64,000 bases of DNA, from the NCBI GenBank assembly GCA_963781585.1, contig CAWAGQ010000013.1, positions 448,001-512,000 of the forward strand. Direction: 5' to 3'. The DNA is from an uncultured Gemmatimonadaceae bacterium. GTDB lineage: Bacteria > Gemmatimonadota > Gemmatimonadetes > Gemmatimonadales > Gemmatimonadaceae. Under the pieces are notes generated by a model, which was not told the origin of the DNA, searched no databases, and was given only the letters and a program-made list of their open reading frames with translations. Shown in pieces: positions 3,402 through 20,418 of the stretch (positions are counted from its first letter, which is position 1; every line of letters begins with the position of its first letter). The position numbers were made by a program, and so were the translations under genes.

Positions 3402-4469
3402 TCAGGGAACCATCACCGCTCGCCTGAGCAGCCCGCCATGGTGTGCCAGGTCGAACACCTCGTTGATCCGCTCGAGCGGATGCCGCTCGACGTACGGCTT
3501 CACCCGGATACGGCCCGCCAGAATCCACTCGAGGATCTCCGCGTAGAGCAGGGGATCGGCACCCCAGTTCCCCCGCGCCTCGGCGTCGTAGGCCATCAGG
3601 TTCGACAGGCAGATCTCGATGCGGTCCATGGTATAGCCAACGACCGCCAGCGCGGCGCCGAATCCAATGAGTCCGAACGCGGTTTCCTGCCCGGCGCGCG
3701 TGCCAGACGTCTCGAAGATCTTCCACAGGAAGGGCGGGGCATCGAGGGAGTCGGCCGCGCTTCGCACCTGCTTCCGAATGTCCCTGGGGGCGACGCCGGC
3801 CACGTCGAGCGCGACGCCGGCGCCGGCGCCGCGGGCCTGCTCCAGCTTCCGCTTGTCCACGTCCAGCGCGATGACCTTGGCCCCTGAGGCGACCGCGATC
3901 TGCACACCATGCACGCCGATTCCTCCGGCGCCGATGAACACGGCGAGGTCGCCGGCGGAAAGGCCTGAGCGCTTGACCGCCTGGAACGGTGTCGAGACCG
4001 CATCGGAGACGACCGCCAGCTCCCACAGCTCGTGGGTGGCGAGCAACTCGTCAGGCACGGGACAGAGAAAGCGCGCCGGCACCACCACATGCGACTGGTA
4101 CCCTCCGTGGCGGTCATTCCCCGGCATCACCTGACTTCGGCAGATCGTGCGTCGTCCGGCCCGGCACAGCGCGCACTCGCCGCACGGCAGCACGGCCGGC
4201 ACGATGACGGCCCGTCCGACCAGCCGCGCATCGATGCCAGGACCCACGTTGTGGACGTATCCGCTGATCTCGTGTCCCAGCACCAGCGGCAGCGTGCCCC
4301 GCGTCTTGACGCCATGATGGAGAAACGACAGGTCGGTGTGGCAGACGCCGCACCCCGACACCTGGACCACCGCCTCGCCCGGCCCGGGCGCCTGCGGTTC
4401 GAGCGCACGGCGCTCGAACGGTGCCCCGGGTGCCGTCATCAGCCATGCGTCCCACGTGGCTTCGGCCAT
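3402..4469 (-). CDS. had: 6-hydroxycyclohex-1-ene-1-carbonyl-CoA dehydrogenase (Zn-dependent MDR)
   Basis: 'CGVCHTDL', 'LGHEISG', 'PCGECALC...C', 'GNWG' motifs; last gene of the bcr operon; start ATG 4469 with GAGGAG RBS. Confidence 0.85.
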   Translation of the reverse strand: MAEATWDAWLMTAPGAPFERRALEPQAPGPGEAVVQVSGCGVCHTDLSFLHHGVKTRGTLPLVLGHEISGYVHNVGPGIDARLVGRAVIVPAVLPCGECALCRAGRRTICRSQVMPGNDRHGGYQSHVVVPARFLCPVPDELLATHELWELAVVSDAVSTPFQAVKRSGLSAGDLAVFIGAGGIGVHGVQIAVASGAKVIALDVDKRKLEQARGAGAGVALDVAGVAPRDIRKQVRSAADSLDAPPFLWKIFETSGTRAGQETAFGLIGFGAALAVVGYTMDRIEICLSNLMAYDAEARGNWGADPLLYAEILEWILAGRIRVKPYVERHPLERINEVFDLAHHGGLLRRAVMVP

Positions 4470-4486
4470 CGCCGTCTGGACTCCTC

Positions 4487-6388
4487 TCAGGACTCCGTGG
4501 TGTTGATGACGACCGTGTCGTCGCCGAATATGAAGCTTCCGCACTCGTGGCATCGATCGAGGGTACGATCCGCCCCCGCAAAACAGCGCCGGTCGTCAGG
4601 CGCCAGCCGCATCACCTTCCGCAGGAAGCGGCAGTCGCAGTCACCGCTGGGCTCGTAGACCGCGTCCAGGTACGACCCGGCGTCTTCCAGCACATTGCGC
4701 ACCCGGACCTTGAGCGACGGCGTGAGCTCCTGCTCGTCGATCGAGAGCTCCTTGCTGATCACCGCGAAGGCCTGGATGCGCTCGTACTTCACGGGATGCT
4801 CCCGATTGAAGGCGAGGATCGTCGCCCGCAACGAGTCCCGCACGACGCGCTCGGCGCGCGCCCGGTCGTCGCCGAACTCTTCGCCGATCCGGAAGAAGTC
4901 CGGGAAGATCAGGGCCGCGAGAAAGTCCCTTCCGCCGCCGGTCACGATGACGTGGCGGATGTACGAGTTCATCCCGGCAAGCCGGTTCTCGATGCCCGTC
5001 GGCACCACCTTCTCCGCGTTCAGCATCTTGAACACGCGATCCTTCCGCGCGACCAGCTTGAGTCCGGCGCCTGCCAGCTCGCCCAGGTCGCCGGTGTGAA
5101 ACCATCCGTCGCCGGGCAGCGCCGCGGCGGTTGCCGCCGGATTCCGGAAGTAACCGCGCATGACGTTAGGCCCCTGCACCAGGATCTCGCCGTCTTCGGC
5201 AATCCGGACCCGTACCCCCGGGATGGGATACCCGACCATGCCCGGAACCGTACGGGGCTCGCCGAGATCCGTGAGCGTGCAGCACGGCGATGTCTCCGTG
5301 AGCCCCCAGCCCTCGAGTACCGGGATGCGCCGCCCGGCGAAGAAGCCGGAGACATTTGCCGGTAGCGGCGCGGCGGCCGTGAAAACGAAACGCAACCCGG
5401 GGTGGAAGATCCGCGCCTCCTGCTCGGGGTGCGCCTGCGCGTACGCAACCAGTTGCTGGTAGACCTTCGGAACGCTGAAGTAGATCGTGGGCCGCACCTC
5501 GAGCCACTGATCCAGCAGCCGCTCGAAGTTCTTGCCGAGCGACTGGTCGATGTGCAGTGCGGCGCCGCTGTACAGCGCACCGTATTTCTCGAAGATGCCG
5601 CCGAAACTGTGGTGCCAGGGGAGGTACGACAGGAACCGGTCGTCGGGAGTGACCGACCAGATGGCGGACAGGGCACGCTGCTGCGAGAGAATGTTGTCGT
5701 GGGTGAGCAGCACGCCCTTGAGCGGACCGCTGGTGCCTGACGTGTACATCATCAGGCTCGCCGTCGCCGGGTCGACGTTGGCGGCGTCGTCGAGGAAAGC
5801 GGTCAGGCGCTGCGGATCGTGTTCCGGCACTGCGAAGTCATGAAGGACGGCTCCGAACGTGGTGGGCTCCGAGCGCCTTCCGCGGTGCCGGCCCGCACCG
5901 GTACCTGACACCACGCCGTCGAACACGACGACCGCGCGCACGTGGTCGGGCACGCCGATACGAAGGAGATGATCGGGAGTCGCGACGATGAGCACCGTTG
6001 GTTCGGCATGCTCCACTAGTGCGCGCGCCTGCTCGGCCGGATAGCCGGTAAAGATGGGGACGTAGATCGCGCCAAGGCACATCGTCGCCATCTCCGCCAC
6101 CAGCATCTCGCCTCGATTTGGCGACAGCAGCACCACCCGGTCGCCCATCCGCACCCCGGACGAGGCGAGAAACGTGCCGAACGCGGCAACGTCCCGTGCG
6201 AACTGATGCCAGGTCGTCGCGCGGAACGCACCGTCGTGTCGTTCGGCGAACGCGGTTCGCCCGTCCAGTGCTGCCACGTTGCGCGCCAGCATCGCACCGA
6301 CGGATTCCGGTTCGCCCAGCGGGGCGAGGCGCGAGAAGATCACGTCGCCCTCGCGCGCGGCGGCCCGGGAGGAGCCTCCGTCAGTCAT
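4487..6388 (-). CDS. AMP-forming acyl-CoA synthetase (long-chain ligase-like) with Cys-rich C-terminal extension
   Basis: 'YTSGTSG.LKG', 'EGWGLTET', 'GWFHTGDLG', 'ELTPSLK' motifs; start approximate (6388/6394/6406). Confidence 0.8.
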   Translation of the reverse strand: MTDGGSSRAAAREGDVIFSRLAPLGEPESVGAMLARNVAALDGRTAFAERHDGAFRATTWHQFARDVAAFGTFLASSGVRMGDRVVLLSPNRGEMLVAEMATMCLGAIYVPIFTGYPAEQARALVEHAEPTVLIVATPDHLLRIGVPDHVRAVVVFDGVVSGTGAGRHRGRRSEPTTFGAVLHDFAVPEHDPQRLTAFLDDAANVDPATASLMMYTSGTSGPLKGVLLTHDNILSQQRALSAIWSVTPDDRFLSYLPWHHSFGGIFEKYGALYSGAALHIDQSLGKNFERLLDQWLEVRPTIYFSVPKVYQQLVAYAQAHPEQEARIFHPGLRFVFTAAAPLPANVSGFFAGRRIPVLEGWGLTETSPCCTLTDLGEPRTVPGMVGYPIPGVRVRIAEDGEILVQGPNVMRGYFRNPAATAAALPGDGWFHTGDLGELAGAGLKLVARKDRVFKMLNAEKVVPTGIENRLAGMNSYIRHVIVTGGGRDFLAALIFPDFFRIGEEFGDDRARAERVVRDSLRATILAFNREHPVKYERIQAFAVISKELSIDEQELTPSLKVRVRNVLEDAGSYLDAVYEPSGDCDCRFLRKVMRLAPDDRRCFAGADRTLDRCHECGSFIFGDDTVVINTTES

Positions 6389-7223
6389 CGCCATCGTCCT
6401 TGCCATGGCGCGCGAGGGCAGCCTCACGAGTCGCGCCATCCGGGCCCACCGATACCGCGCCCTCGCGCGCGGCCAGTGCCGCGCCGAACGCGCCCATCTC
6501 CTGGGGATGTGGCGGGACGACGACTTCGCAGCGAAGCTCAGACGACAGCAGCGCGACCATGGTCGGATGAAACGCCACCACGCCGCCGGTGGCGACGACC
6601 TGCCCGTGAAAGACATCCATGGCTATCACCCGCTTCACCAGCGAGCGGTAGGCGGCCATTGCCAGGTCGGCCGGCCGGTTCCCGCTGCGAATGAGCGCCA
6701 GCAACTCGGTGCCGGCGAATACGGTGCAGAAGCTCGACAGCTCGAGCGCGTTGGAGGCCTGCTTCGCGAGAGCGTCCATCTCCTCCACGCGGATTCCGAG
6801 TCGAAGCGCGATCTCGTCGAGAAAGCTTCCGGTGCCGGCGGCACACTTGCGGTTCATGCGGTGCGACACGCGTTGCCCGGCGGCGTCGAACCGGATCACC
6901 TTGGCGTCCTGTCCGCCGATATCGATGACCGTCGCCGGACCGGGGATATAGAACGCAGCGCCGCGGCCGTGGCAGTCCAGCTCGGTGCGCGAGCCGTGGG
7001 CGAATGTCACCGCCTGACGCCCGAATCCCGTCGCCCAGATCGCGCGCACCTGGCCGGCCTCACACCCCGCGTCGGCCAGCGCGTTGGCGTAGACCCGCTC
7101 GGCGGCCGCGGCCAGATCTGCACCCGAGCGCACCACCGACATCCCGAGCACCCGCGCGCCGGCGTCGATGATGACCGCCTTCGTGTTCCACGAGCCGCTG
7201 TCGATGCCGGCGTAGAGCGTCAT
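6381..7223 (-). CDS. 2-hydroxyacyl-CoA dehydratase activase (ASKHA ATPase, HgdC/FldI/BcrAD family), canonical copy
   Basis: 'GIDSGS..TKA', 'ATGFGR', 'DIGGQDAK', 'KCAAGTGSFL', 'CTVFA', 'GAFGAAL'. Confidence 0.88.
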   Translation of the reverse strand: MTLYAGIDSGSWNTKAVIIDAGARVLGMSVVRSGADLAAAAERVYANALADAGCEAGQVRAIWATGFGRQAVTFAHGSRTELDCHGRGAAFYIPGPATVIDIGGQDAKVIRFDAAGQRVSHRMNRKCAAGTGSFLDEIALRLGIRVEEMDALAKQASNALELSSFCTVFAGTELLALIRSGNRPADLAMAAYRSLVKRVIAMDVFHGQVVATGGVVAFHPTMVALLSSELRCEVVVPPHPQEMGAFGAALAAREGAVSVGPDGATREAALARHGKDDGDD

Positions 7224-8512
7224 CGTCCTCCCGCCTGACGACTGGCCGAGCGCGCGTCCGCCAGCTGCTCGACGAATCCTTCGATGTTGGTGCGCGCCTG
7301 CTCGTCCGAGAAGCAGCGCAGGTCGTTCACGTCGCCGTCGACCACCAGCGCCGGAATCTGCAGACGTTCGGACAGCCGGCGCGGCATGCCGTAGCGTGTG
7401 TTCGTGTTGTTGGGGCAGGTGCGGCAGTCATGGAAGACAAGTCCGTCCACGCCGTAGTCCTCGATCATCCGTTCGATGTATCGCTCCTTTGCCGCCTCGG
7501 AGCGCACGATGAACAGCTCGAGCGATGCGCGCGCCATCGAGCGAATCGGGTCGGCCGCGTCGAGGGCGGAGAAGATCCAGCTGTTGCAGTAGGTGGAGGA
7601 GACCACCGCCGCGCGAAATTCGCCGAACAACGTCGACAGCGCGCGCAGTCGGCCCCAGATGGGCATCCCGTCCCAGTACAGGCGGAACGATTCTCCGGCG
7701 ACCGCGGCGATGCCGTCGTGGGCACGCTCCTCGAGTTCGCGCCTGAGGACCCGATAGTACGCACAGGCCTCCGGTGCGCCGCGCAGCACCACCGCCGGTC
7801 CCATGTGCACGGTGCCGTCGAAAAACGTCAGCGGCGCGGGCTGGTGCGCGGCAGTCCGCAGACACGCCTCCCAGAGATCCGAGCACTCGCGTGAACAGGA
7901 GACGGCGGACGCGAGGGACGCGTCATCGAGCCGTCTTCCGGCGACGGACTCGAGCGTCGGCACGAGCTGCTCCAGCTGTCGCGCGATCGCGTCGGTGTCG
8001 CCCTCCGACACCTCGTCGATACTCCGCGGCGAGTGGACGCCGACGACCGGGACGCTCCACTCTCTTCCGTACCACCCGAACCAGTCGGACACGTCGCGGC
8101 ATTGATTCGTGCTGAAGACCAGCACGTCCGCGCGCGGCACGCGGTGCAGCCCGTAGGCCGCGAGCGGCGTCTCGCCGGCGAGATATGCCCCGATGTCGCT
8201 GGTGAGGTACGAGCAGATCTCCGGTGAATACCCCTGTGCGTGCGCCAGCGGCAGGTACCGGCCGGCGCTCCGCGCCGTGCCCAGCATGGCGGCGTGGTTC
8301 TCGGGGAAGAAGACGCGGAAGCCAAGTGCGCGCAGCAGCTCGGCGGGTCCGACACTCGTGCACCACGCTACCGGCGACAGGTTGCGCTCGCTCTCGGCGA
8401 ACGAACGGTAGTACGCGCCCATCGTGTCGCGCAGGGCGCTTGTGCTGCGGATCTCCCTCCCGTTCGGGCCTGCCGCCCCCACGCCATCACCTCGTGCCCG
8501 GGTATCGCTCAT
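7220..8512 (-). CDS. 2-hydroxyacyl-CoA dehydratase family subunit (HgdA/FldB-like) with three Fe-S Cys
   Basis: 'FPENHAA', 'EICSY', 'NQC', 'HDCRTC', 'DGD..D.R' motifs; ATG 8512 overlaps upstream stop (ATGA). Confidence 0.85.
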   Translation of the reverse strand: MSDTRARGDGVGAAGPNGREIRSTSALRDTMGAYYRSFAESERNLSPVAWCTSVGPAELLRALGFRVFFPENHAAMLGTARSAGRYLPLAHAQGYSPEICSYLTSDIGAYLAGETPLAAYGLHRVPRADVLVFSTNQCRDVSDWFGWYGREWSVPVVGVHSPRSIDEVSEGDTDAIARQLEQLVPTLESVAGRRLDDASLASAVSCSRECSDLWEACLRTAAHQPAPLTFFDGTVHMGPAVVLRGAPEACAYYRVLRRELEERAHDGIAAVAGESFRLYWDGMPIWGRLRALSTLFGEFRAAVVSSTYCNSWIFSALDAADPIRSMARASLELFIVRSEAAKERYIERMIEDYGVDGLVFHDCRTCPNNTNTRYGMPRRLSERLQIPALVVDGDVNDLRCFSDEQARTNIEGFVEQLADARSASRQAGGR

Positions 8513-9336
8513 TGTACCGTTCCCGCGGCGACAGGGTGTTCGACGGTCTGCGGCAGTGGTCGCGCGGCCATTATCGCGGCGCCCAGGGCTCCTGTGAAGA
8601 TCGGTTCCGGCACTGCCTTGACGGTCATGCCGGTGAGCGACTCCAGCGCGCGGAGCACGCCAGGGAAGTACTCGGCCACGCCGCCGCACACCACGATGGG
8701 ATCCTGGAACCCGCCGATCTCGAGGACCCGCTCCGCGATCGAGTGCATGCAGCCGAACGCCACCTCCTCGCGGGTCGCGCCGTCGCGGAGCCGCTCGAGC
8801 ACGTCGGAGGCGGAGAACACCGAACAGTAGCTGCTCACCTGGGCGGGTCGCTCAGCGGCCGCGGCCAGCTCCTGAAGCCGGAGGGCGCTCACGTCCAGGT
8901 GCCGCGCGGTGAACATGAGGAAACTCCCCACGCCAAGCGCACAGCGGCGAACGCCCCGGGCCTCCAGCTGGTGTCCATCCGCGCTCACCTGGATCACGCG
9001 CGGGTCGCGCCCTCCGATGTTCACCAGCGTCATGGGTTCGCGCAGATGGTGGAATGCTCCCAGGGCGTGGCACGCCGTCTCCGATGCGGTGAGGGTTGCG
9101 TGCGGCACGCAGTTCATGGCGAACCCGGTGGCCCCGACGCCGACGAGGTCGTCCTCGCGCCGCTGCGCGTCGTCGAGCGCGGCCATCAGCACTTCGTAGA
9201 TGCAGGCCTGGAAGTAGCCGCGCGTGGGCAGCACCGCCCGCCCGAGCACACGCCCGTCCTCACTGGCCACCAGCGCCTTCACGCATTCGGTCCCCGCGTC
9301 CACGCCCGCGGCGATCCTCGGTTCAGCCGGTTGCAT
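8509..9336 (-). CDS. Second dehydratase activase, degenerate ATP-binding motifs, both Fe-S Cys retained
   Basis: 'GVDAGTECVKA', 'NIGGRDPR', 'RCALGVGSFL', 'YCSVFS', 'GALGAA'. Confidence 0.8.
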   Translation of the reverse strand: MQPAEPRIAAGVDAGTECVKALVASEDGRVLGRAVLPTRGYFQACIYEVLMAALDDAQRREDDLVGVGATGFAMNCVPHATLTASETACHALGAFHHLREPMTLVNIGGRDPRVIQVSADGHQLEARGVRRCALGVGSFLMFTARHLDVSALRLQELAAAAERPAQVSSYCSVFSASDVLERLRDGATREEVAFGCMHSIAERVLEIGGFQDPIVVCGGVAEYFPGVLRALESLTGMTVKAVPEPIFTGALGAAIMAARPLPQTVEHPVAAGTVQ

Positions 9337-11644
9337 AACCCGTATCTCCCGCCAGCGCCCGTTCCGACGCGCCGGCGTGTTGCGTGCGTTGTTCGACGAA
9401 ATCCGACAGCAGCGCCTGCACGCGTTCGAGCGAGAACAGGCGCGGGTCGTGGGAATCGGCTTCGATCACCAGCGCCGGGATCCCCGTGAGGCGTTGGGCG
9501 CGGACGGCGAGGCCGTACCGCACGTGGCTGGCTTCGGCGGTGGTGCGGCAGTCGTGATAGACTGCCGCGTCGACGCCGAAGCGTTCGAACTCTCGCGCGA
9601 GGTAGGCCGTCTTGTACTGCTCCGAGCGGTTGCCGAACACGCCGGTGTATGCCTCCGCCATGCTCGCGATCGGGTCGTGCGGACCGAGGCCCTTCAGCGC
9701 AAACACACTGCAGAATGTGGAGGCGACGACGGCGGTTCCCGTCCCGGCGAACAGTCCCGACAGGGCGCGCAGCGCACCCCAGATAGGCGGTCCGTCCCAG
9801 TAGACGCGATGAAATTCGCTGGGGACGGCCGCAACACCCTGAGCGACGCGCTGTTCGATTTCGGCCTTGAGCTCGCGGTAGTAGGCGACGGCCTCGGGCG
9901 TGCCGCGCAGCAGGAGCATCGGCGCGAGGTGGGTCACGGCGTCGAAGAAGGTCAGCGGTGCGGGGGTCGCCTGCCCCAGCTCGAGAATCTCGTTCCACAG
10001 CGCCGACGCCTGGGCGCTCCACTCCACGATCTCGGCCAGCCGGTCGGAGTCGAGCGGTCGTCCACTGACTCTGCGGAGTTGAATCGACAGGCGCGTCCAC
10101 TGGTCGATTGCGGCGTCGAGGTCGATCCGCTCGAGGTCGTGGAGCGCGGTCGGTGGATGCAGTCCGACGACCGGCACGCCATAGTGAGCGCCGTAATACT
10201 CGAACCAGCGACGCAGCTCGTGTCCGGTGTTGGTGCTGTACACCGCGACGTCGGGGCGGGGCGGTCCCTTGATGCCGTGGGCGGTCACGAGCGGGCTGCT
10301 CCCCTCCAGCAACGCGCCGACGTCGGCGCGCATGGCGGCGCTGGCGAACTGCGAGAACCCCTCGGCCGTGGCCCGGGCGATGAGCGGCGCCGCCTGACGA
10401 GTGGCACCGATCAGGGCGGCGTGGTTCTCCGGAAAGTACGGCAGCATGTCGAGGGCCCGAATGATCTCCACCGGGCCGAGCCCCGAGCAGGCCGCCACTT
10501 TCCGGTCGGGGTCATCCGACGCGGCCTCGACATCGAGATAGTACGCGTGGATCAGCTCCTTCAGGCGGCGGGTGGATTCGAGCCGCGGTCCGACGAACGG
10601 CAGACCGGCGTCGGCCCCTCTCGCTGTCGGCCGGGACGGCGCCCTCGGCCGGGCACGGTCGCCGCCATGCGCGGCGCCCGCGTCGAGCCCCAATCGTCGC
10701 GCGAGCTCCTGCTTGTTGAGAAACTTCTGGCGCTCACGGGAGTGGATGAAGTGGACGATCGCCGCGTTATGCGGCGCCGTCAGCCCCAGCCGGCGCGCCT
10801 CGGCCACGATCGCGCCGTTGAGCGCGTCCACTTCCGTGCGCGTGCCGCGGGACAGGTCCTGCCACATCGACGGCCGGTTCTTCGCCAGCGCTTTCAGCGA
10901 TCCGATGATCGGACGGAACGGATCCTCCTCGTCGACGATCGGGACGCCTCGCGCCCGCATCACGGCGATGATCTCCATGGCGAGATCGCGCATGAACGCG
11001 AGCAGCTCGTCGTCGCCGAGGATTTCGCGGCACGTCAGCCCGGTGAGCGCCGAGGTCGGGTTCACCACCGCGTTGTGCAGGAGCTTCTGCCAGACGGCGT
11101 GATCGACGTTGTCGACCACGGTCGTCTCGAGCCCGGCCCGCCGGAACATCGCGCCGATGGCCTCGATCTCGGGCGTGACGGTGCCGGCCATGGGCGCGAT
11201 CTGGACCGGCTTGATCCCGGCGCGGTAGTGCAGGCGGCTCGGACCGGCGTGCTGGATGCTGTGGTACGTGATGCCGCACAACACATGGTCCGGGGCCACG
11301 TGGCGCGCGATGGCCTCCACGTTGCCGATGCCGTTCTGCATCGAGAGGAACCAGGTGCCCGGATGAACGACCCCCATCACCGCCTGCACCGCGTCCTCGG
11401 TCTGATAGGTCTTGGTCGCGATGAAGACCAGGTCGAACGGCGCCGCACCCTCGACGGTGGTCACCGCCCGCACCGGATAGCAGCTCTCCTCCTCGCCCAC
11501 CCGGGTGATCGACAGACCGGATTCGTTCAGGAGCTGCACGCGGGCCTTGTTCACCTCGAGGAGCGTGACGTCCTCGCCATCGCGCGTCAGCAGAGCTCCC
11601 ACCAGCCCGCCCAGGGCGCCGGCACCCACGATCACGATTCGCAT
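9323..11644 (-). CDS. Fusion: ketopantoate reductase (PanE/ApbA) domain + 2-hydroxyacyl-CoA dehydratase-like domain
   Basis: N-half 'GAGALG', 'QNGIG', 'WQKLLHNAVVNP', 'SMWQDL', 'TEVDALNG'. C-half 'FPENHAA', 'WDGPPIWG', 'HDCRT', 'EADSHDPR'. One continuous 773-aa ORF with a Pro/Arg/Ala linker. Confidence 0.85.
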   Translation of the reverse strand: MRIVIVGAGALGGLVGALLTRDGEDVTLLEVNKARVQLLNESGLSITRVGEEESCYPVRAVTTVEGAAPFDLVFIATKTYQTEDAVQAVMGVVHPGTWFLSMQNGIGNVEAIARHVAPDHVLCGITYHSIQHAGPSRLHYRAGIKPVQIAPMAGTVTPEIEAIGAMFRRAGLETTVVDNVDHAVWQKLLHNAVVNPTSALTGLTCREILGDDELLAFMRDLAMEIIAVMRARGVPIVDEEDPFRPIIGSLKALAKNRPSMWQDLSRGTRTEVDALNGAIVAEARRLGLTAPHNAAIVHFIHSRERQKFLNKQELARRLGLDAGAAHGGDRARPRAPSRPTARGADAGLPFVGPRLESTRRLKELIHAYYLDVEAASDDPDRKVAACSGLGPVEIIRALDMLPYFPENHAALIGATRQAAPLIARATAEGFSQFASAAMRADVGALLEGSSPLVTAHGIKGPPRPDVAVYSTNTGHELRRWFEYYGAHYGVPVVGLHPPTALHDLERIDLDAAIDQWTRLSIQLRRVSGRPLDSDRLAEIVEWSAQASALWNEILELGQATPAPLTFFDAVTHLAPMLLLRGTPEAVAYYRELKAEIEQRVAQGVAAVPSEFHRVYWDGPPIWGALRALSGLFAGTGTAVVASTFCSVFALKGLGPHDPIASMAEAYTGVFGNRSEQYKTAYLAREFERFGVDAAVYHDCRTTAEASHVRYGLAVRAQRLTGIPALVIEADSHDPRLFSLERVQALLSDFVEQRTQHAGASERALAGDTGYATG

Positions 11645-11687
11645 CAGCGCCTCCCGCGCCGGATGATCCGTCGCATCATCGGGGCGC

Positions 11688-12461
11688 TCACCGGTTCTTC
11701 CACGCCGGGCGGCGCTTTTCGGTGAACGACGCGATGCCCTCGCGCACGTCCTCGGTCGCCATCAGTTCATCCAGGAAAACGCGTTCGGCCTCGCGCCGCG
11801 CTACCTCGAACGGCCGACCCTGCAGCCGTCGCGCGAGCCGGACGTTCATGCGCATGACGAGCGGGCTCGCGCGCCGCAGGTCGTCAAGCAGGGCGTCGAG
11901 GACGGCGGTCAGGTCCCCGGACGGCGCGACGCGCGAGACGAGCCCCATTGCCTGCATCTCGGCTGCCGAATACGTCCGGCCCGTGCACGTGACCTCGAGT
12001 GCGCGCGCGAGGCCGATTCGGGACGCCAGCCAGGTGACGCCGACCGGCGCGAAGAACCCCAGCCGGATCTCCGGCTGACCAAACGTGGCGCGGTCGCTGG
12101 CCACCAGCACGTCGGCCATGGCGGCCAGCTCGAATCCAGCGCCTAACGCCGCACCATCCACGACCATCACGAGAGGCAGCTCGCTCGCCCCCAGGGTGCC
12201 GAAGAGCGCGCTGAACGCGGCGATCATGCCCGGCGCCTGCCCGGGAGCGTGCTCGCCCACGTCGGCGCCGGCCGAAAAGGCGCGGGCCTCCGAGCTGAGC
12301 GTGATCGCCTTGAGCGTGCGATCGGCCAGGGCGCGCTCGAGGGCGTCGGTCAGGGCCCCCATCATCGCCGCGGTGAGGATGTTGAGCGGTGGTGAGTCCA
12401 GCGTCAGGTGCGCGACGTCCTCACGGACCTCGTACCGTACCAGACTTGCGCGGTCGGTCAT
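11688..12461 (-). CDS. dch: Cyclohexa-1,5-diene-1-carbonyl-CoA hydratase (crotonase fold)
   Basis: 'PPLNIL', 'FSAGADVGEH', 'GAGFEL', 'FGQPEIRLG'; bcr context. Alternative GTG start at 12470. Confidence 0.72.
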   Translation of the reverse strand: MTDRASLVRYEVREDVAHLTLDSPPLNILTAAMMGALTDALERALADRTLKAITLSSEARAFSAGADVGEHAPGQAPGMIAAFSALFGTLGASELPLVMVVDGAALGAGFELAAMADVLVASDRATFGQPEIRLGFFAPVGVTWLASRIGLARALEVTCTGRTYSAAEMQAMGLVSRVAPSGDLTAVLDALLDDLRRASPLVMRMNVRLARRLQGRPFEVARREAERVFLDELMATEDVREGIASFTEKRRPAWKNR

Positions 12462-12477
12462 CGTCGTCACGGTCTCC

Positions 12478-13227
12478 TCACATGCACTGGCCGCCGTCCA
12501 CCCGGATCACTTCACCCGTCACGTGACGGGCGCGATCCGAGCAGAGGAAGACCACCATCTGCGCGATATCCTCGGGGTCAGCGATGCGGCCGAGTGGGGA
12601 CTCGCGGATTGCGCCGTCGAGCACGCCGCGCGGCAGCGCGGCCGCCATGTCGGTGTGGACCATGCCCGGCGCCACGCAGTTCACGTTGACGCCGAACGCT
12701 CCCAGTTCGCGGGCGAGCGAGCGGGTGAACGCCATCACTCCCCCTTTCGACGCCGCGTAGTTCGACTGCCCGAACTTTCCGCGCAGCCCGTTGATCGACG
12801 AGATGGTCACGATCTTGCCACGCTGCTGGCCACGAAAGGGCGGTACGACCGCGCGGCAGTAGGTGAAGCATCCCTTCAGGTTCACGTCGAGTACGTCGTC
12901 CCACGCTTCCTCGGTCATTTTCCAGACCACGGCATCGCGCGTGATGCCGGCGTTGCAGACGAGGATGTCGAGACGCCCCAGCTCGCGGATGGTCGCGGCC
13001 ACGCTGTTCTCCGCCGCTTCCATGCTCGTGACGTCGGCGCCGAGCGCCACCGCCCGGCGGCCCGAGTGGCGCAGCTCGCCCGCAATCGACTCGGCGCCGG
13101 CGAGAGCGCCCAGGTCCACGAGCGCCACATCGCAGCCTTCGCGCGCGAATTCGCGCGCGATCGCTGCGCCGATGCCGCGTCCGGCGCCCGTGACCAGCGC
13201 CACCTGTCCCGCCATCCCGAGATCCAT
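12478..13227 (-). CDS. Short-chain dehydrogenase/reductase (FabG/BzdZ-like)
   Basis: 'TGAGRGIG', 'NAGITRD', 'YAASK', 'VDGG'. Confidence 0.85.
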   Translation of the reverse strand: MDLGMAGQVALVTGAGRGIGAAIAREFAREGCDVALVDLGALAGAESIAGELRHSGRRAVALGADVTSMEAAENSVAATIRELGRLDILVCNAGITRDAVVWKMTEEAWDDVLDVNLKGCFTYCRAVVPPFRGQQRGKIVTISSINGLRGKFGQSNYAASKGGVMAFTRSLARELGAFGVNVNCVAPGMVHTDMAAALPRGVLDGAIRESPLGRIADPEDIAQMVVFLCSDRARHVTGEVIRVDGGQCM

Positions 13228-13235
13228 CCGATGTC

Positions 13236-14210
13236 CTAGCCTGTCCGGCCCGCGCCATTCAGCGCCGCGCCGCAACTCCCGCAGAACGTGAAGTCGGCGG
13301 GAAGCCCCGTCGCGCCGCAGGACTCGCACGTCGTGGCGTATGGTCCCCACAGGAATTCGCTGCTGGCCCCCGACGCCGCCCGCTGGCGCAGCCCCGCGAA
13401 GTCGACCTTCCGCTTCTCGACGAACGCGCGCATCCCCTCGTACGGCTCCAGCGTGGTGAAGTGCGTGGAGAGCCAGTCACGCGCGTGCCCGATGGTGGCG
13501 TTCCAGGCGGACTCCTTCCAGTAGTTCACCTGCTGCTTGGTGTAGCGCGTGCACTCGGGGAACTTCTCCAGCGCCTGCTGCGCCAGCCCCTGCACCTCGT
13601 CATCGAGGCGGACCCGCGGCACCACGCGGTTCACCAGTCCCCACTCCAGGGCCTGACGGGCGGGGATCCGCGGGTTCAGGAAGAGCATCTCGCGCGCGCG
13701 CCGGTCGCCCACGTGAATCGACAGCCACTGCGTCGCTCCACCCGCGGCCACGCTGCCGACGCTCGATCCGACCTGCCCCAGGTACGTGTCGTCCGCCATC
13801 ACCGCCAGGTCGCACGCCAGCTGCGATTCGTTCCCGCCGCCCACCGCGATGCCGTTGAGCCGGGCGATGGTGATCTTCCCGCTGCGGAGGATGCTCTCGA
13901 TGTAGCGGCTGAACAGGCCCATGTACTTCCAGTAGTCGCGGGGGCGCTTGGTGTAGACGGCGGCGTACTCCTTCACGTCGCCGCCGGTGCAGAACGCCTT
14001 GTCGCCCGCGCCGGTGTACACGATGACCCCCACCGCGTCGTCGTTCGAGGCATCCTCGAAGGCGACGATCAGCTCCCGCAGCGTGTCGGTGGTGTACGCG
14101 TTGTACGACTCGGGGCGGTTGATGGTGATGCGCGCCACCATGTCGCGCTTTTCATAGAGAATGTCCTTGAACCCGAAGCAGGTCGCGTCCTTCGAAGGGA
14201 AATACTCCAT
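13236..14210 (-). CDS. oah: 6-oxocyclohex-1-ene-1-carbonyl-CoA hydrolase (ring-opening), with C-terminal CxxC..CxxC
   Basis: 'YNAYTT', 'TGAGDKAFCTGGDVKEYA', 'VGGGNESQLACD', 'FPECTRYTK', ends 'CESCG...FCGSCG'; bcr context. Confidence 0.78.
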   Translation of the reverse strand: MEYFPSKDATCFGFKDILYEKRDMVARITINRPESYNAYTTDTLRELIVAFEDASNDDAVGVIVYTGAGDKAFCTGGDVKEYAAVYTKRPRDYWKYMGLFSRYIESILRSGKITIARLNGIAVGGGNESQLACDLAVMADDTYLGQVGSSVGSVAAGGATQWLSIHVGDRRAREMLFLNPRIPARQALEWGLVNRVVPRVRLDDEVQGLAQQALEKFPECTRYTKQQVNYWKESAWNATIGHARDWLSTHFTTLEPYEGMRAFVEKRKVDFAGLRQRAASGASSEFLWGPYATTCESCGATGLPADFTFCGSCGAALNGAGRTG

Positions 14211-14285
14211 CCGTCGATACCTCAGTCGCAGTTGGTCACCGATGAGCGGTATGGTCGATCGTCTGATTGTTCGTCACGCTCCGCG

Positions 14286-15491
14286 TCATTCCACCTTCAC
14301 CACGATTGCCGCTGCGCTGTCGCCGGCCGCGCATCCGGTGAACAGTCCATAGCCGCCGCCCAGGAGCGTGAGGTCCTCGACCAATTCCATGATGGCACGG
14401 AGCCCCGTGGGTCCCTGCGGGTGTCCCCACACCAGCGAGCTGCCGTGGCGATTCATCATCTCCGGGTCGAGGCCGAGCTCCCGCGACAGGTACACATCGT
14501 TGACCGCGAACGGATTGTGCGTCGTCACACTCGTCAGGTCGCCGGCGCTGATTCCGGCACGCTCCAGCGCCTGACGCGCGGCCGGCGCCACCGCCATCGG
14601 CATGAATCCCTTCCTGACCCGTGCCTGTCCGTACGACAGCAGCCGGATCCCCACCGCGCCGTCGCGCGAGAGCGCCTGTGCGCGGTCCCGGCTCGCGGCG
14701 AGGATCATGGCCGCGCTGCCGTCGGCCGGGTGCGTCTGCGTGCCGAAGGTCACCGTGCCCCCGTCGATGACGGGGCGCAGTCCCTGCAGCCCCTGCGCCG
14801 TGGTCGGAAAGACGCCCTCATCGCCGGTGACGGTCGCCAGAACCTTCCTGCCGCGCGCGTCCTTCACCTCGACCGGCCGCACCAGGAACCGCGACAGGAA
14901 CGCGCCGTCGTCCGCGGTGGCGAGTTGGTACTGGCGGAAGCGCAGCAACGCCATTTCCTCCTGTGCCGCGCGGCTGATGCCTGCCTCACGCGCCACGTTC
15001 TCCGCCGTTTCCACCATCGAGTTCCTGGCGTATGGATCGTGGCCGAAGCTGTCGAGCACCCAGTTCTCGGCATCGCCCGTGCCGCCTGGGCCGGCGGGAT
15101 TCGGATAGTAGACGTGTGGTCCATTGCTCGTCCGATCGGCCGACGCAGCGAGGTAGACGGTGGCGCTCCCCGATTCCAGCTCCTGGGCGCCCTGCACCAG
15201 GGTCCGGACCGATGTCGCGCACGCCTGGTTGATGGTCGGCCCGGTCACGTGGCACAGTCCCGCGAGACCGGCAAACCACGGCGCCCCGTAGAACGACCCC
15301 TTGCTCGGCACGGTCGTGCCGAGACACATGCCGTCGAACGCGGAGACGTCGACGCCGCGCTCGGACAGCGCGCGTTTCGTGACATCGGCGGCGAAGGGAA
15401 TCGGCGCCAGCGGCGCGAAGCTCCCCTGCCATGCGCAGAACGGCGTCGACCAGTAGCCGCCGTACGGAATCCAGGTGTTCGTGAATTGCAT
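14286..15491 (-). CDS. Thiolase family protein
   Basis: 'QACATS' nucleophile, 'HNPF' in place of NEAF, 'GHPQGPTG', 'CAAGD'. Confidence 0.85.
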   Translation of the reverse strand: MQFTNTWIPYGGYWSTPFCAWQGSFAPLAPIPFAADVTKRALSERGVDVSAFDGMCLGTTVPSKGSFYGAPWFAGLAGLCHVTGPTINQACATSVRTLVQGAQELESGSATVYLAASADRTSNGPHVYYPNPAGPGGTGDAENWVLDSFGHDPYARNSMVETAENVAREAGISRAAQEEMALLRFRQYQLATADDGAFLSRFLVRPVEVKDARGRKVLATVTGDEGVFPTTAQGLQGLRPVIDGGTVTFGTQTHPADGSAAMILAASRDRAQALSRDGAVGIRLLSYGQARVRKGFMPMAVAPAARQALERAGISAGDLTSVTTHNPFAVNDVYLSRELGLDPEMMNRHGSSLVWGHPQGPTGLRAIMELVEDLTLLGGGYGLFTGCAAGDSAAAIVVKVE

Positions 15492-15549
15492 CGTCGTCCT
15501 CACACAGGGCGGGGGAGGCCGGCGGCCGACCCCGCGTCTTGGCTCGTGC

Positions 15550-19936: not shown

Positions 19937-20418
19937 TCCGTCGCCCTCCACTGGGTCCGCACCGGCATTTCGAGCACCAGCCGCGGAACCGGCGCGAAGC
20001 CGGACCGGGCGAAGAACCCCATCAGCTCGAGCTCGTCCCAGGCCACCTCCGTGCGCAGTCGCTCAATGCGCAGCGCGACGAGGTTGAGCATGAGCTGCTC
20101 GAGCAATGCCGCGCCGATGCCACGCCGCACGAACGAGCGATCGACCAGCACCGTGTCGAGGATCGCCACCGGTTCCGGCTGGCCGAACTCGCCGTAGTGC
20201 ACCGATGCGAGCAGCGCGCCAACGAGCGTGCCGTCCACCTCGGCGCCCAGCGATATGTTCACGTCGGTATCATCGAGGGCCCGCCGGACCTTCCCCTGGT
20301 ACCAGGTCTGACGGCTCCGGCCGCTGATCTCGAGGTCCATCTTCACGAGACGCGGGCAGTCCTCGAGCCGGAGCGTCCGGATCGAGGGTTCGGCGCCTAG
20401 TTCGACGATGCGGTCCAT
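19933..20418 (-). CDS. GNAT acetyltransferase, BadL-like single domain
   Basis: 'YGEFG', 'RRGIGAALL', 'LRTEVAW', 'FFARSGF'; lies between bcrD and the hcr genes. Confidence 0.75.
   Translation of the reverse strand: MDRIVELGAEPSIRTLRLEDCPRLVKMDLEISGRSRQTWYQGKVRRALDDTDVNISLGAEVDGTLVGALLASVHYGEFGQPEPVAILDTVLVDRSFVRRGIGAALLEQLMLNLVALRIERLRTEVAWDELELMGFFARSGFAPVPRLVLEMPVRTQWRATE

What the first reader, a model, noticed from the sequence alone, without database searches (positions are those of the whole stretch)
4487..11644. Five-gene radical-dehydratase module inside the benzoyl-CoA operon: candidate new entry route into anaerobic aromatic catabolism
Seen: five overlapping genes (PanE-dehydratase fusion, activase', dehydratase, activase, AMP-forming ligase) lie between dch and had, in addition to a complete bcrCBAD. 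Known: clostridial Fld/Had/Hgd systems convert 2-oxoacid to (R)-2-hydroxyacid, then the CoA ester, then enoyl-CoA, using a D-2-hydroxyacid dehydrogenase, a CoA transferase, an alpha/beta dehydratase and a homodimeric activator. Some PanE-family enzymes are D-2-hydroxyacid dehydrogenases. Inference: the same chemistry is rebuilt here from different parts (PanE as reductase, ATP-dependent ligase instead of transferase). It could turn aryl-pyruvates from Phe/Tyr into cinnamoyl-/coumaroyl-CoA, which the thiolase and the 25209-27230 enzyme could beta-oxidise to benzoyl-/4-hydroxybenzoyl-CoA for Hcr and Bcr. Alternative: a second aryl-CoA reductase or dehydroxylase for a substituted ring.
Basis: partly seen in the sequence, partly recalled or inferred. 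Interest (0 to 1): 0.9.

Follow-up and report, generated by a model that had tools for sequence, protein, structure and literature searches.

The report
Reductase-fused radical enzyme gene module
Five conserved, unstudied genes inside an anaerobic benzoate-degradation operon encode an ATP-primed iron-sulfur radical enzyme of unusual build that probably feeds an imported 2-oxo or 2-hydroxy acid, perhaps derived from tyrosine or phenylalanine, into that pathway.

Summary
They are F (PanE reductase fused to an HGD-D domain), a1 (activase), H2 (HGD-D), a2 (activase) and Lig (AMP-forming ligase).

New points:
- Both HGD-D units are HadB/BcrB-type "alpha" paralogs. H2 keeps the three [4Fe-4S] cysteines (47/47), while F's domain lacks them (0/74, 0/74, 7/74) yet stays conserved.
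- No beta/gamma-type subunit is present.
- The two activases form a canonical/divergent pair, as BcrA/BcrD do.
- The fusion occurs in at least 125 places in species-representative genomes from about seven phyla, all uncultured. It is almost always embedded in Hcr–TetR–SDR–thiolase–hydratase–F–a1–…–Had operons.
- H2–a2 travels with an acid–CoA ligase of three unrelated kinds, and sometimes with a symporter.

In a tree, H2 and F form their own subfamily, separate from HadB; no BcrB or BzdO equivalog was found among H2's nearest relatives.

The best reading is a 2-oxoacid → (R)-2-hydroxyacid → CoA ester → enoyl-CoA feeder route of new subunit design. The aryl-pyruvate substrate is plausible but unproven. 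A substituted aryl-CoA reductase remains a serious rival. My searches found no publication. This is a new variant of a known kind, interest 0.72.

The parts
10721..11644 (-). F, N-terminal PanE/ApbA-type NAD(P)H 2-oxoacid reductase domain (aa 1-308)
   Evidence: Pfam ApbA 3.9e-36 and ApbA_C 6.7e-33. TIGR00745 scores 254.7 against a cut-off of 141.35. The best PDB matches are ketopantoate reductases, e.g. 5hws_A at 128.8 bits. K78, N104, K187, N191 and E271 are invariant in 74/74 sequences. Mean pairwise identity is 0.67.
10589..10720 (-). F, variable linker (aa 309-352)
   Evidence: Mean pairwise identity is 0.30 among 74 sequences, against 0.67 and 0.59 for the flanking domains.
9323..10588 (-). 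F, C-terminal HGD-D domain: an alpha-type paralog of H2 without [4Fe-4S] ligands
   Evidence: Pfam HGD-D 1.4e-45. The best PDB match is HadB 3o3m_A at 107.6 bits, against MbdO 60.8 and BzdO 55.3. It is about 41-44% identical to H2 orthologs. At the positions of the three HadB/BzdO cluster cysteines it has S435, G474 and T702, with Cys in 0/74, 0/74 and 7/74 sequences. The domain is still conserved, with mean identity 0.59.
8509..9336 (-). a1, divergent activase-type ATPase subunit
   Evidence: BcrAD_BadFG 2.5e-34. TIGR00241 scores 145.1 against 125.4. PDB matches are MbdQ 109.5 and HgdC 109 bits. The bridging-cluster cysteines C132 and C171 are present in 70/70 sequences. The phosphate-2 motif is degenerate, with Q->R in 60/70 and D106 kept in only 41/70, as in the window's BcrD. 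It follows F directly in 70/70 loci.
7220..8512 (-). H2, catalytic-type HGD-D subunit with one [4Fe-4S] site
   Evidence: HGD-D 6.3e-57. PDB matches are HadB 157.7 bits, MbdO 96.5 and BzdO 75.5. NCBIfam scores are all below cut-off: HadB model 182.5, BcrB 124, BzdO 74.4, double-cubane 47.7. C100, C138, C366 and E71 are invariant in 47/47 sequences. The position of BzdO His131 is Val in 46/47.
6381..7223 (-). a2, canonical activase-type ATPase subunit
   Evidence: BcrAD_BadFG 5e-44. TIGR00241 scores 204.1. PDB matches are MbdQ 157.8 and HadI 151.6 bits. C127 and C166 are present in 38/38 sequences. The DxGxS, DIGGQD and GGV motifs are canonical.
4487..6388 (-). Lig, AMP-forming acyl-CoA ligase (FadD11/FAA1-like); start uncertain (6388-6406)
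   Evidence: AMP-binding 1.6e-71 plus AMP-binding_C_3. Only generic fatty-acid and acyl-CoA ligase models hit, all below cut-off, and no benzoate-CoA ligase model appears among the 25 shown of 30 hits at E<=1e-25. In other loci it is replaced by an ADP-forming acyl-CoA synthetase or by a different AMP ligase.
3402..4553 (-). had, 6-hydroxycyclohex-1-ene-1-carbonyl-CoA dehydrogenase (flank)
   Evidence: TIGR03201 scores 426.9 against a cut-off of 338.65. It lies downstream of F in 38/39 loci with at least 9 kb held.
11688..12470 (-).
   Evidence: ECH_1 2.4e-49. TIGR03189 scores 146.2 against a cut-off of 292.5. It is directly upstream of F in 63/68 loci. It is absent in L049, which instead carries a Dch-like gene scoring 256.7.
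12478..15629 (-). SDR (12478-13350 as listed), BadI/Oah-like crotonase Eb (13236-14210), thiolase (14286-15629)
   Evidence: Pfam and NCBIfam. Eb scores 197.8 on the Oah model and 190.4 on the BadI model, both below cut-off. In other loci Eb is replaced by canonical Oah, and the thiolase by an SCPx-type thiolase plus a DUF35 protein.
15550..19951 (-). TetR regulator (15550-16323), HcrCA fusion (16203-19187), HcrB-like FAD subunit (19058-19951)
   Evidence: TIGR03194 scores 915.7 against 994.55. HcrCA lies upstream of F in 40/45 loci and TetR in 39/45.
20397..25065 (-). bcrD, bcrA, bcrB, bcrC (bcrC read in two frames, shift near 24,495)
   Evidence: TIGR02261 scores 342.2, TIGR02259 572.9 and TIGR02260 676.9. 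TIGR02263 scores 275.6 on the C-terminal part only. The N-terminal part lies in another frame. blastx against intact orthologs shows the frame change.

Best explanation
The module encodes a four-protein, ATP-primed ketyl-radical enzyme of the BCR/HAD family, together with its substrate-activating ligase.

The proposed parts are:
- H2 is the catalytic subunit. It holds one [4Fe-4S] cluster with an open iron site, like HadB.
- F is its paralog. It has lost the cluster, takes the place of the usual beta/gamma subunit, and carries a PanE-type NAD(P)H-dependent 2-oxoacid reductase.
- a2 (canonical) and a1 (divergent) form a heterodimeric activase. It shares a bridging [4Fe-4S] cluster and uses ATP to inject a low-potential electron into H2.

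The proposed flow is:
1. An imported 2-oxo acid is reduced by the PanE domain to the (R)-2-hydroxy acid.
2. Lig turns this into the CoA thioester. In other lineages an ADP-forming synthetase or another ligase does this step.
3. H2/F dehydrates the thioester to the 2-enoyl-CoA.

The product enters the (4-hydroxy)benzoyl-CoA pathway encoded around the module. The most likely substrates are 4-hydroxyphenylpyruvate or -lactate and phenylpyruvate or -lactate. These would give 4-coumaroyl- or cinnamoyl-CoA, which are beta-oxidised to 4-hydroxybenzoyl- or benzoyl-CoA for Hcr and BCR.

What is shown: domain content, conserved residues, paralogy, synteny and the ligase replacements. What is inferred: complex formation, the direction of the reaction, dehydratase chemistry and, most weakly, the aryl substrate.
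For: H2 looks like a HAD alpha subunit:
- It keeps the three cluster cysteines and Glu71 in 47/47 sequences.
- It scores best against HadB, both in the PDB (157.7 bits against 96.5 for MbdO and 75.5 for BzdO) and in NCBIfam (182.5 against 124 for BcrB).
- At the position of BzdO His131 it has Val, as HadB does. The window's BcrB and MbdO have Phe there.
- Among 90 full-length representatives taken from H2's best 150 relatives, four reach E<=1e-90 on the HadB model and none on the BcrB or BzdO models.

Phylogeny: H2 and F-HGD lie in one clade of 34 rows (SH-aLRT 100), apart from the HadB clade; the window's BcrB was used as the rooting outgroup.

The PanE domain looks catalytically intact, with its catalytic residues present in 74/74 sequences. 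PanE relatives include D-mandelate dehydrogenases and broad alpha-keto acid reductases (PMC4230899, passages; 10.1101/2024.01.05.573888, abstract).

A second, independent PanE fusion exists. P0122 joins PanE to a cluster-bearing H2-type domain, which points to a functional link between reductase and radical subunit.

The ligase pattern fits activation of a free acid:
- H2-a2 is followed by an acid-CoA ligase in 43 of 49 loci that hold H2; the other 6 loci are short.
- Three unrelated kinds of ligase fill this place, and 9 loci also carry an SSF symporter.
- None of the ligases matches an aromatic-acid CoA ligase equivalog at the thresholds used.
- The window's aromatic island has no other ligase among the ORFs I scanned. 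That fits (hydroxy)benzoyl-CoA arising directly as a thioester.

Linkage to the aromatic pathway is tight: Hcr 40/45, had 38/39, Ed 63/68.
Against: - No studied HAD has a cluster-less partner or lacks a beta subunit, so dehydratase activity cannot be assumed.
- Two activase paralogs, one of them degenerate, resemble BCR (stoichiometric ATP use) rather than HAD systems (PMC11971306, Introduction).
- Ed, SDR and the thiolase can be fully assigned to the lower benzoyl-CoA pathway. Oah and Had equivalogs are in the same operons. The one locus with a near-canonical Dch lacks Ed. This leaves no dedicated aryl beta-oxidation set in the minimal loci.
- 9 of 39 loci with at least 9 kb held downstream show no H2.
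- L040 has the ADP-forming synthetase without H2, and L017 and L059 each have two ligases, so the ligase-H2 link is not exclusive.
- I saw no aminotransferase or other Tyr/Phe-specific gene in the window.
- The PanE domain matches true ketopantoate reductases best.
Confidence: 0.45

Rival explanations
1. The module is a second, BCR-style ATP-dependent reductase or dehydroxylase for a substituted (for example hydroxylated) benzoyl-CoA. Lig or the ADP-forming synthetase activates the aromatic acid. H2 performs the one-electron chemistry with stoichiometric ATP use through a1/a2. The PanE domain reduces a ring ketone that arises by tautomerisation of the reduced hydroxy-ring.
For: - The four-protein make-up, two HGD-D plus two ATPases with one canonical and one degenerate, mirrors BcrCBAD.
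- The module is embedded between ring-pathway genes in 63/68 loci (Ed upstream) and 38/39 loci (had downstream).
- Minimal loci encode Hcr, Had, Oah and beta-oxidation genes but no BCR within 10 kb.
- The ADP-forming synthetase can sit next to Oah without H2 (L040).
Against: - No BcrC/BzdN-type subunit with the six-cysteine [8Fe-9S] site is present, and F has no cluster at all (PMC11971306, section 8).
- H2 scores below the BCR equivalog cut-offs and lower than it does on HadB.
- No BCR model hits H2's nearest 90 representatives at E<=1e-90.
- The ligases do not resemble known aromatic-acid ligases.
- A canonical bcr set already sits in the same operon in the window and in at least 15 of 28 loci with both flanks held.
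- A PanE enzyme acting on a ring ketone has no precedent that I know of (recalled).
Confidence: 0.2
2. The chemistry is the same HAD-type chemistry, but on a non-aromatic 2-oxo or 2-hydroxy dicarboxylate such as 2-hydroxyglutarate, -adipate or -pimelate. The resulting enoyl-CoA would join the pimelyl/glutaryl-CoA part of the pathway through Ed, SDR and the thiolase.
For: - The domain logic is the same as in the best explanation.
- The neighbouring hydratase, SDR and thiolase fit C7/C5 dicarboxyl-CoA beta-oxidation.
- The ligases are of the aliphatic type.
Against: - Conserved linkage to Hcr (40/45) and Had (38/39), rather than to glutaryl-CoA enzymes, is not explained.
- No glutaconyl-CoA decarboxylase was seen in the ORFs I scanned.
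- 2-oxopimelate and 2-oxoadipate are not common growth substrates (recalled).
Confidence: 0.12
3. The system runs in the opposite direction. It hydrates an enoyl-CoA to a 2-hydroxyacyl-CoA, and the PanE domain oxidises that to the 2-oxo compound. This would be an alpha-oxidation branch.
For: HAD reactions are reversible in principle, and PanE-type enzymes are reversible dehydrogenases (recalled). No call supports this reading directly.
Against: - No 2-oxoacid:acceptor oxidoreductase or decarboxylase that could use the product was found in the window or in the loci I annotated.
- A ligase and a symporter next to H2-a2 point to uptake of a free acid.
Confidence: 0.05
4. F is simply the cell's ketopantoate reductase for CoA synthesis, fused by accident to a decayed dehydratase paralog. 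The five genes are not one functional unit.
For: Sources annotate the fusions as 2-dehydropantoate 2-reductase. The best PDB hits are ketopantoate reductases.
Against: - The fusion, its a1 partner (70/70) and its operon context are kept across about seven phyla.
- The cluster-less domain is conserved at 0.59 mean identity, against 0.30 for the linker.
- The starts and stops of the five genes overlap.
Confidence: 0.03

Closest known systems
(R)-2-hydroxyisocaproyl-CoA dehydratase HadBC with activator HadI (Clostridioides difficile; PDB 3o3m, 4eht)
   Same: H2 is the best PDB match of HadB (157.7 bits). It has the same three cluster cysteines and the conserved Glu, and Val at the BzdO-His131 position. 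a2 matches HadI at 151.6 bits and has both bridging-cluster cysteines.
   Different: - H2 is not an ortholog: it scores 182.5 against the 750 cut-off and falls in a separate clade.
- There is no HadC-type beta subunit. The partner is an alpha paralog without a cluster, fused to PanE.
- There are two different activase genes instead of one.
- A ligase replaces the family III CoA-transferase; that the clostridial systems use a transferase is recalled.
   Same: It has the same proposed sequence of steps: aryl-pyruvate to (R)-aryl-lactate, then the CoA ester, then aryl-acrylyl-CoA. It is also a precedent for an accessory enzyme physically attached to the dehydratase.
   Different: - Here the attached enzyme is the reductase, not the CoA-transferase.
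- The reductase belongs to the PanE family, not the D-LDH-like family.
- Activation is ATP-dependent.
- The product would be oxidised to benzoyl-CoA rather than reduced to aryl-propionate.
- No Fld sequence could be compared here.
Class I benzoyl-CoA reductases (BcrCBAD, BzdNOPQ, MbdONQP; PDB 8s02, 9g87, 9gai)
   Same: Both have two HGD-D proteins plus two activase-type ATPases, one canonical and one divergent. Both belong to the BCR/HAD radical enzyme family, and the module sits in the same operon as a bcr set.
   Different: - There is no [8Fe-9S]-bearing gamma/N subunit.
- H2 and F score far below the BcrB and BzdO cut-offs (124 against 486.55; 74.4 against 448.6).
- A PanE domain is present.
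- The gene order alternates as HGD-ATPase-HGD-ATPase.
PanE/ApbA family: ketopantoate reductases and D-mandelate / alpha-keto acid reductases
   Same: The N-terminal 308 residues of F pass the family models and keep the catalytic Lys, Asn and Glu set.
   Different: F is fused to an HGD-D domain and sits in a catabolic operon. Its substrate is unknown.
Double-cubane cluster proteins (DCCP, PDB 6eno)
   Same: Same superfamily and the same activase-type reductase partner.
   Different: H2 scores 47.7 against the 350 cut-off. Neither H2 nor F has a six-cysteine site.

Membership tests
2-hydroxyacyl-CoA dehydratase (HAD) systems | Alpha subunit with HGD-D fold, three-cysteine [4Fe-4S] site and an open iron | tested here: met
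   H2 has C100, C138 and C366 in 47/47 sequences, aligned to the HadB and BzdO ligands (PMC11971306, section 8). The same feature is not met by the F domain (0/74, 0/74, 7/74).
2-hydroxyacyl-CoA dehydratase (HAD) systems | Beta subunit (HadC/HgdB type) with its own [4Fe-4S] cluster | tested here: not met
   Both HGD-D units match alpha-type models and chains (HadB, BcrB, BzdO, MbdO). No beta-type hit was found within the five-gene module. F-HGD has no conserved cysteine triad.
2-hydroxyacyl-CoA dehydratase (HAD) systems | Single homodimeric ATP-dependent activator with a bridging [4Fe-4S] cluster | tested here: inconclusive
   The bridging cysteines are kept in a1 (70/70) and a2 (38/38). However, two paralogs about 33-38% identical to each other are present, one with a degenerate phosphate-2 motif. 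Oligomeric state is not testable here.
2-hydroxyacyl-CoA dehydratase (HAD) systems | Orthology to a characterised dehydratase (equivalog score) | tested here: not met
   On NF052455 (HadB), H2 scores 182.5 and F 140.2 against a cut-off of 750. They fall in a separate clade from the HadB equivalog P0242.
2-hydroxyacyl-CoA dehydratase (HAD) systems | Dehydration of an (R)-2-hydroxyacyl-CoA with catalytic (sub-stoichiometric) ATP use | not testable with these tools
   This needs anaerobic biochemistry.
Class I benzoyl-CoA reductase | Heterotetramer of two HGD-D and two activase-type subunits | tested here: inconclusive
   The gene count and the canonical/divergent ATPase pair fit.
Class I benzoyl-CoA reductase | BzdN/BcrC-type subunit with a six-cysteine double-cubane [8Fe-9S] cluster | tested here: not met
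   No such subunit is in the module, and F has no cluster site. The feature is taken from PMC11971306, section 8.
Class I benzoyl-CoA reductase | Equivalog-level similarity to BcrB/BzdO and BcrA/D | tested here: not met
   H2 scores 124 against 486.55 on TIGR02260 and 74.4 against 448.6 on TIGR03191. a1 and a2 score 62-118 against cut-offs of 313-578.
PanE/ApbA 2-dehydropantoate 2-reductase family | ApbA and ApbA_C domains above threshold, with the catalytic Lys/Asn/Glu set | tested here: met
   Pfam hits and TIGR00745 at 254.7 against 141.35. The residues are kept in 74/74 sequences. Their equivalence to E. coli Lys176, Asn98 and Glu256 is recalled.
PanE/ApbA 2-dehydropantoate 2-reductase family | Ketopantoate as the physiological substrate | not testable with these tools
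   All equivalog models remain below cut-off, for example NF005092 at 181.4 against 500. An enzyme assay is needed.

The most novel reading that the evidence does not exclude
The module would be a previously unrecognised anaerobic entry route that converts tyrosine- and phenylalanine-derived aryl-pyruvates or aryl-lactates into 4-coumaroyl- or cinnamoyl-CoA, and from there into 4-hydroxybenzoyl- or benzoyl-CoA. It would operate in widespread uncultured soil and sediment phyla: Gemmatimonadota, Acidobacteriota, Myxococcota, Krumholzibacteriota and Eiseniibacteriota. The enzyme would be a new design in the BCR/HAD radical family: a single-cluster catalytic subunit, paired with a cluster-less paralog that carries its own NAD(P)H reductase, and served by a BCR-like heterodimeric ATPase.
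Probability: 0.35. Interest if true: 0.85.

Novelty: new variant of a known kind. Interest (0 to 1): 0.72.

Why it matters
The BCR/HAD radical enzymes are a small, mechanistically remarkable family, known from a few clostridial dehydratases and from the benzoyl-CoA reductases. This module would add a third architecture: one cluster in the core, no relay cluster, and a fused pyridine-nucleotide reductase. That would test current ideas on how the activase electron reaches the active site.

It also marks a conserved, unexplained step in the anaerobic aromatic pathway of abundant uncultured soil phyla. Automatic annotation currently hides the key gene under the name '2-dehydropantoate 2-reductase'.

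If the aryl-lactate route is right, it would give a new link between protein (Tyr/Phe) turnover or fermentation products and anaerobic ring degradation. It would also give a marker gene set for it.

Tried and rejected
- **Complex prediction** (F-HGD with H2): not available, so nothing was folded. Whether F and H2 bind stays untested.
- **Structure prediction** for F: not accepted at that time and not repeated.
- **The listing of cluster members** for ten H2-like representatives: switched off, so their names and taxa stayed unknown, except for P0122 through.
- **Genome scan cap**: The context of P0122 and of the Bacteroidota H2-like proteins could therefore not be fetched. Nor could I check whether genomes whose locus lacks H2 carry it elsewhere.
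- **Literature searches**:
  - '2-hydroxyacyl-CoA dehydratase' + 'ketopantoate reductase' gave 0 papers.
  - '2-dehydropantoate 2-reductase' + 'benzoyl-CoA' gave 2 papers that looked irrelevant from their titles and abstract starts.
  - 'Gemmatimonadota' + 'benzoyl-CoA reductase' gave 8 papers, none about this module judged from the listing.
  - 'phenyllactate dehydratase' with benzoyl-CoA terms gave 34 papers, of which 15 were listed. None describes it by title or abstract.
  - PMC10936416 (Krumholzibacteriota) does not contain the word 'dehydratase'.
- **BzdO His131 as a BCR marker**: rejected, because the window's own BcrB and MbdO have Phe at that position.
- **An alternative cysteine triad in F** of loci without an adjacent H2: searched for and not found.
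- **Promoter and terminator scan** of 3000-16500: no more sites than in shuffles.
- **ESM Atlas look-up** of H2: only generic 'HGD-D' clusters.
- searches failed on my coordinate or frame errors and were corrected.

Full report
**Observation.** The window has about 68% G+C. The span 4487-11644 holds five consecutive minus-strand genes with strong family matches:
- F, 11644->9323, 773 aa: ApbA, ApbA_C and HGD-D.
- a1, 9336->8509: BcrAD_BadFG.
- H2: HGD-D.
- a2, 7223->6381: BcrAD_BadFG.
- Lig: AMP-binding plus AMP-binding_C_3.

Start-codon inspection shows tight coupling. a1 overlaps the end of F by 14 nt. H2 most likely starts at ATG 8512, in an ATGA overlap with the a1 stop, which gives 430 aa rather than the 489 aa listed from GTG 8689. 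a2 starts in an ATGA overlap with the H2 stop. Lig most likely starts at ATG 6388-6406. A pattern scan found no more promoter-like or terminator-like sites than in shuffled sequence.

**Surroundings.** All neighbours from 3402 to 25065 are on the same strand. Read in the direction of transcription they are:
- bcrC, bcrB, bcrA, bcrD.
- A GNAT gene.
- An HcrB-like FAD subunit.
- A fused HcrC-HcrA (TIGR03194, 915.7 against a cut-off of 994.55).
- A TetR regulator.
- A thiolase.
- A BadI/Oah-like crotonase (Eb).
- An SDR.
- A crotonase (Ed).
- The five genes.
- had (TIGR03201, 426.9 against 338.65).

A FadB-like dehydrogenase-hydratase fusion lies divergently at 25209-27230.

Ed reaches only 146.2 on the Dch model (cut-off 292.5). 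bcrC is read in two frames, with the change near 24,495, when compared with intact orthologs. A second split gene, NAGLU, suggests indel errors or pseudogenes. The rest of the window (27-64 kb) holds unrelated genes.

**Anatomy of the core.** Both HGD-D units are of the alpha type (HadB, BcrB, BzdO).
- H2's best solved relative is HadB (157.7 bits). MbdO scores 96.5 and BzdO 75.5.
- F's domain gives 107.6, 60.8 and 55.3 against the same three.
- The two are about 41-44% identical to each other.

I used the ligands given for BzdO (Cys95, Cys128, Cys380; HadB has the same coordination; PMC11971306, section 8) together with the HMMER alignments. H2 keeps all three cysteines and the neighbouring Glu in 47 of 47 sequences. 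F has Ser/Asn, Gly and Thr/Ala/Ser at those positions, with Cys in 0/74, 0/74 and 7/74. No other conserved cysteine triad exists in F, whether or not H2 is adjacent (41 and 25 sequences).

The cluster-less domain is nevertheless conserved, with mean pairwise identity 0.59. The linker stands at 0.30, and the PanE domain and H2 at 0.67 each. The PanE domain keeps its GxGxxG motif (65 of 74, the other nine being truncated at the N-terminus) and the Lys/Asn/Lys/Asn/Glu set in 74/74.

Both activases keep the two cysteines that bridge the [4Fe-4S] cluster in HgdC (70/70 and 38/38). a2 has canonical ATP motifs. The phosphate-2 motif of a1 is degenerate, in the way BcrD differs from BcrA in this same window.

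**Distribution and synteny.** The fusion protein has many relatives at 61-74% identity with the same domain set. Sources either leave them unnamed or call them 2-dehydropantoate 2-reductase.

One scan of species-representative genomes found 125 places that encode a relative, and 80 loci were kept. By record title they are 36 Gemmatimonadota, 8 Myxococcota, 7 Acidobacteriota, 5 Krumholzibacteriota, 5 Fibrobacterota, 2 Eiseniibacteriota, 1 Pseudomonadota and 16 unclassified. Seventy-nine of the 80 titles begin with "MAG"; the other (L075) is an uncultured-bacterium bin.

Counts, with denominators limited to loci that hold enough flank:

| Feature | Count |
|---|---|
| a1 directly after F | 70/70 |
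| had downstream | 38/39 |
| Ed directly upstream | 63/68 |
| HcrCA upstream | 40/45 |
| TetR | 39/45 |
| A bcr subunit at 45% identity or more | 15/28 |
| H2 directly after a1 | 38/63 |
| H2 anywhere in the locus | 30/39 |

The arrangement varies:
- Gemmatimonadota almost always have F-a1-H2-a2-Lig-had (28 of 29).
- Many other lineages have F-a1-had. In these a convergent operon H2-a2-(ADP-forming acyl-CoA synthetase)-(SSF symporter) ends next to had (L017, L029, L050, L058, L065). L046 has H2-a2-ACD in the same order on the plus strand, without the symporter.
- Three loci carry a different AMP-forming ligase (L069, L074, L078); in L069 it lies directly after a2.

Of 49 loci with H2, 43 have one of these three unrelated ligases. 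The other six are short. None of the ligases hits an aromatic-acid ligase equivalog at the thresholds used.

Exceptions are L040, which has the synthetase next to Oah without H2, and L017 and L059, which each have two ligases. Nine loci with at least 9 kb held downstream have no H2. Two of those nine show the synthetase or the symporter: in L062 at the locus edge, in L040 inside the locus.

**What the neighbours say.** In the minimal loci the operon is ACAD-Oah-HcrB-HcrCA-TetR-(MobA-XdhC)-SDR-SCPx thiolase-DUF35-Ed-F-a1-had. Oah and Had are at equivalog level there (L066: 570.9 against 464.45 and 445.2 against 338.65). Canonical Oah is also found in L040, L049, L055 and L058.

Eb and canonical Oah replace each other, as do the two thiolase types. 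L049, the one locus with a near-canonical Dch (256.7), has no Ed next to F.

Ed, SDR and the thiolase may thus simply be the lower benzoyl-CoA pathway. Even so, F-a1 is clearly tied to the (4-hydroxy)benzoyl-CoA pathway.

**Family placement.** A full-library search with H2 gave 1619 relatives at E<=1e-3 and 243 at E<=1e-30. Of 90 full-length representatives among the best 150, four hit the HadB model at E<=1e-90 and one of them is at equivalog level. None hit the BCR models.

I built a 101-row tree (IQ-TREE quick search, LG+G4, rooted on the window's BcrB). F-HGD (13 rows, support 100, long stem 0.46) and H2 (support 98) lie in one clade of 34 rows (support 100), together with standalone proteins. 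This clade is apart from the HadB clade.

One singleton protein, P0122 from a Myxococcota MAG, fuses PanE to an H2-type domain that keeps the cysteines. Its HGD part is 58-65% identical to about 412-aa standalone proteins. Where a source names them they come from Bacteroidota, Ignavibacteria and Chlorobi. A PanE fusion to this subfamily has therefore arisen, or persisted, in two forms.

**Interpretation.** The parts fit an ATP-primed ketyl-radical enzyme made of H2 (catalytic), F (a structural paralog carrying a 2-oxoacid reductase) and an a1/a2 heterodimeric activase, fed by an acid-CoA ligase.

Three points favour the chain 2-oxoacid to (R)-2-hydroxyacid to CoA ester to enoyl-CoA:
- It is the only reading that gives every domain a role.
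- It matches the D-specific 2-hydroxyacid chemistry known in the PanE family (PMC4230899, passages; 10.1101/2024.01.05.573888, abstract).
- It matches the HadB-like traits of H2.

Two arguments point to aryl substrates, and both rest on context alone. One is the constant linkage to Hcr and the ring pathway. The other is the lack of any aromatic-acid ligase in an island that holds Hcr and BCR, which is what one expects if 4-hydroxybenzoyl-CoA arises by thiolysis.

Against this reading, the four-subunit BCR-like composition, the missing relay cluster and the pathway-complete minimal operons keep a substituted aryl-CoA reductase or dehydroxylase alive as a rival. Class I BCRs use ATP stoichiometrically and HADs use it catalytically (PMC11971306, Introduction). 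That difference gives a clean experimental discriminator.

**Novelty.** My searches found no paper that describes a PanE-HGD fusion or this module. Supplements were not examined. By sequence it is neither a HAD nor a BCR ortholog, and it fails one defining feature of each: the beta subunit with its cluster, and the double-cubane subunit. I rate it a new variant within the BCR/HAD radical enzyme kind, with unknown substrate.

**Limits.** The following remain untested:
- Subunit contacts.
- Whole-genome co-occurrence of F and H2.
- The context of P0122.

Noticed in passing
window 23787-25065 (-): bcrC is split between two reading frames, with the change near 24,495. Intact orthologs in L003 and L039 align across the break. 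It is either an indel error in the assembly or a pseudogene.
   Followed up: yes
window 45150-47769 (+): An alpha-N-acetylglucosaminidase (NAGLU) gene is also split into two overlapping ORFs (45150-47504 and 47221-47769). This is a second frame break in the window.
   Followed up: partly
window 16203-19951 (-): The 4-hydroxybenzoyl-CoA reductase-like enzyme has its 2Fe-2S (gamma) subunit fused to the Mo (alpha) subunit (994 aa). Its FAD subunit scores only 118.6 against 404.55 on the HcrB model, so it may lack the HcrB-specific features and use another electron donor.
   Followed up: partly
window about 19933-20400 (-): A GNAT acetyltransferase domain gene lies between bcrD and hcrB. It recalls BadL of Rhodopseudomonas palustris (PMC6191541, seen only as a search listing and abstract start).
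   Followed up: no
window 15550-16323 (-), and 39 of 45 related loci: A TetR-family regulator sits in the middle of the operon, directly after hcrCA, and is conserved across phyla.
   Followed up: partly
L066 1101-2249; L040, L049, L055, L058; window 13236-14210: There is non-orthologous replacement inside the same operon frame. A BadI/Oah-like 324-aa crotonase (about 80% conserved) stands in Gemmatimonadota and Acidobacteriota where other lineages have canonical Oah. Likewise, a classical thiolase stands where other lineages have an SCPx-type thiolase plus a DUF35 protein (31 loci against 24, with 1 holding both).
   Followed up: partly
P0122 (protein from a Myxococcota MAG; no locus held): This singleton 728-aa protein fuses PanE to an H2-type HGD-D domain that keeps all three cluster cysteines. 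Its HGD part is 58-65% identical to a large set of standalone proteins of about 412 aa; those that carry a source name are from Bacteroidota, Ignavibacteria and Chlorobi, and their function is unknown.
   Followed up: partly
L048 14162-18529: Directly after had lies a further four-gene set of two HGD-D and two activase-like genes. They are only 23-40% identical to the window's Bcr proteins. This may be another BCR/HAD-family enzyme.
   Followed up: no
L036 14253-20603: Two further xanthine-dehydrogenase-family Mo enzyme gene sets follow had in a Krumholzibacteriota locus. MobA and XdhC maturation genes sit inside the operon.
   Followed up: no
19 Gemmatimonadota loci, e.g. L027 15380-16930 (-): A conserved hemerythrin-domain protein gene lies downstream of had in many Gemmatimonadota loci. 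In the window a PD40/amidohydrolase gene (114-3236) lies there instead.
   Followed up: no
L056 529-1809 (-): A family III CoA-transferase lies divergently upstream of one minimal operon. Its best model is succinate-glutarate CoA-transferase, at 408.7 against a cut-off of 750. I did not check how often this recurs.
   Followed up: no
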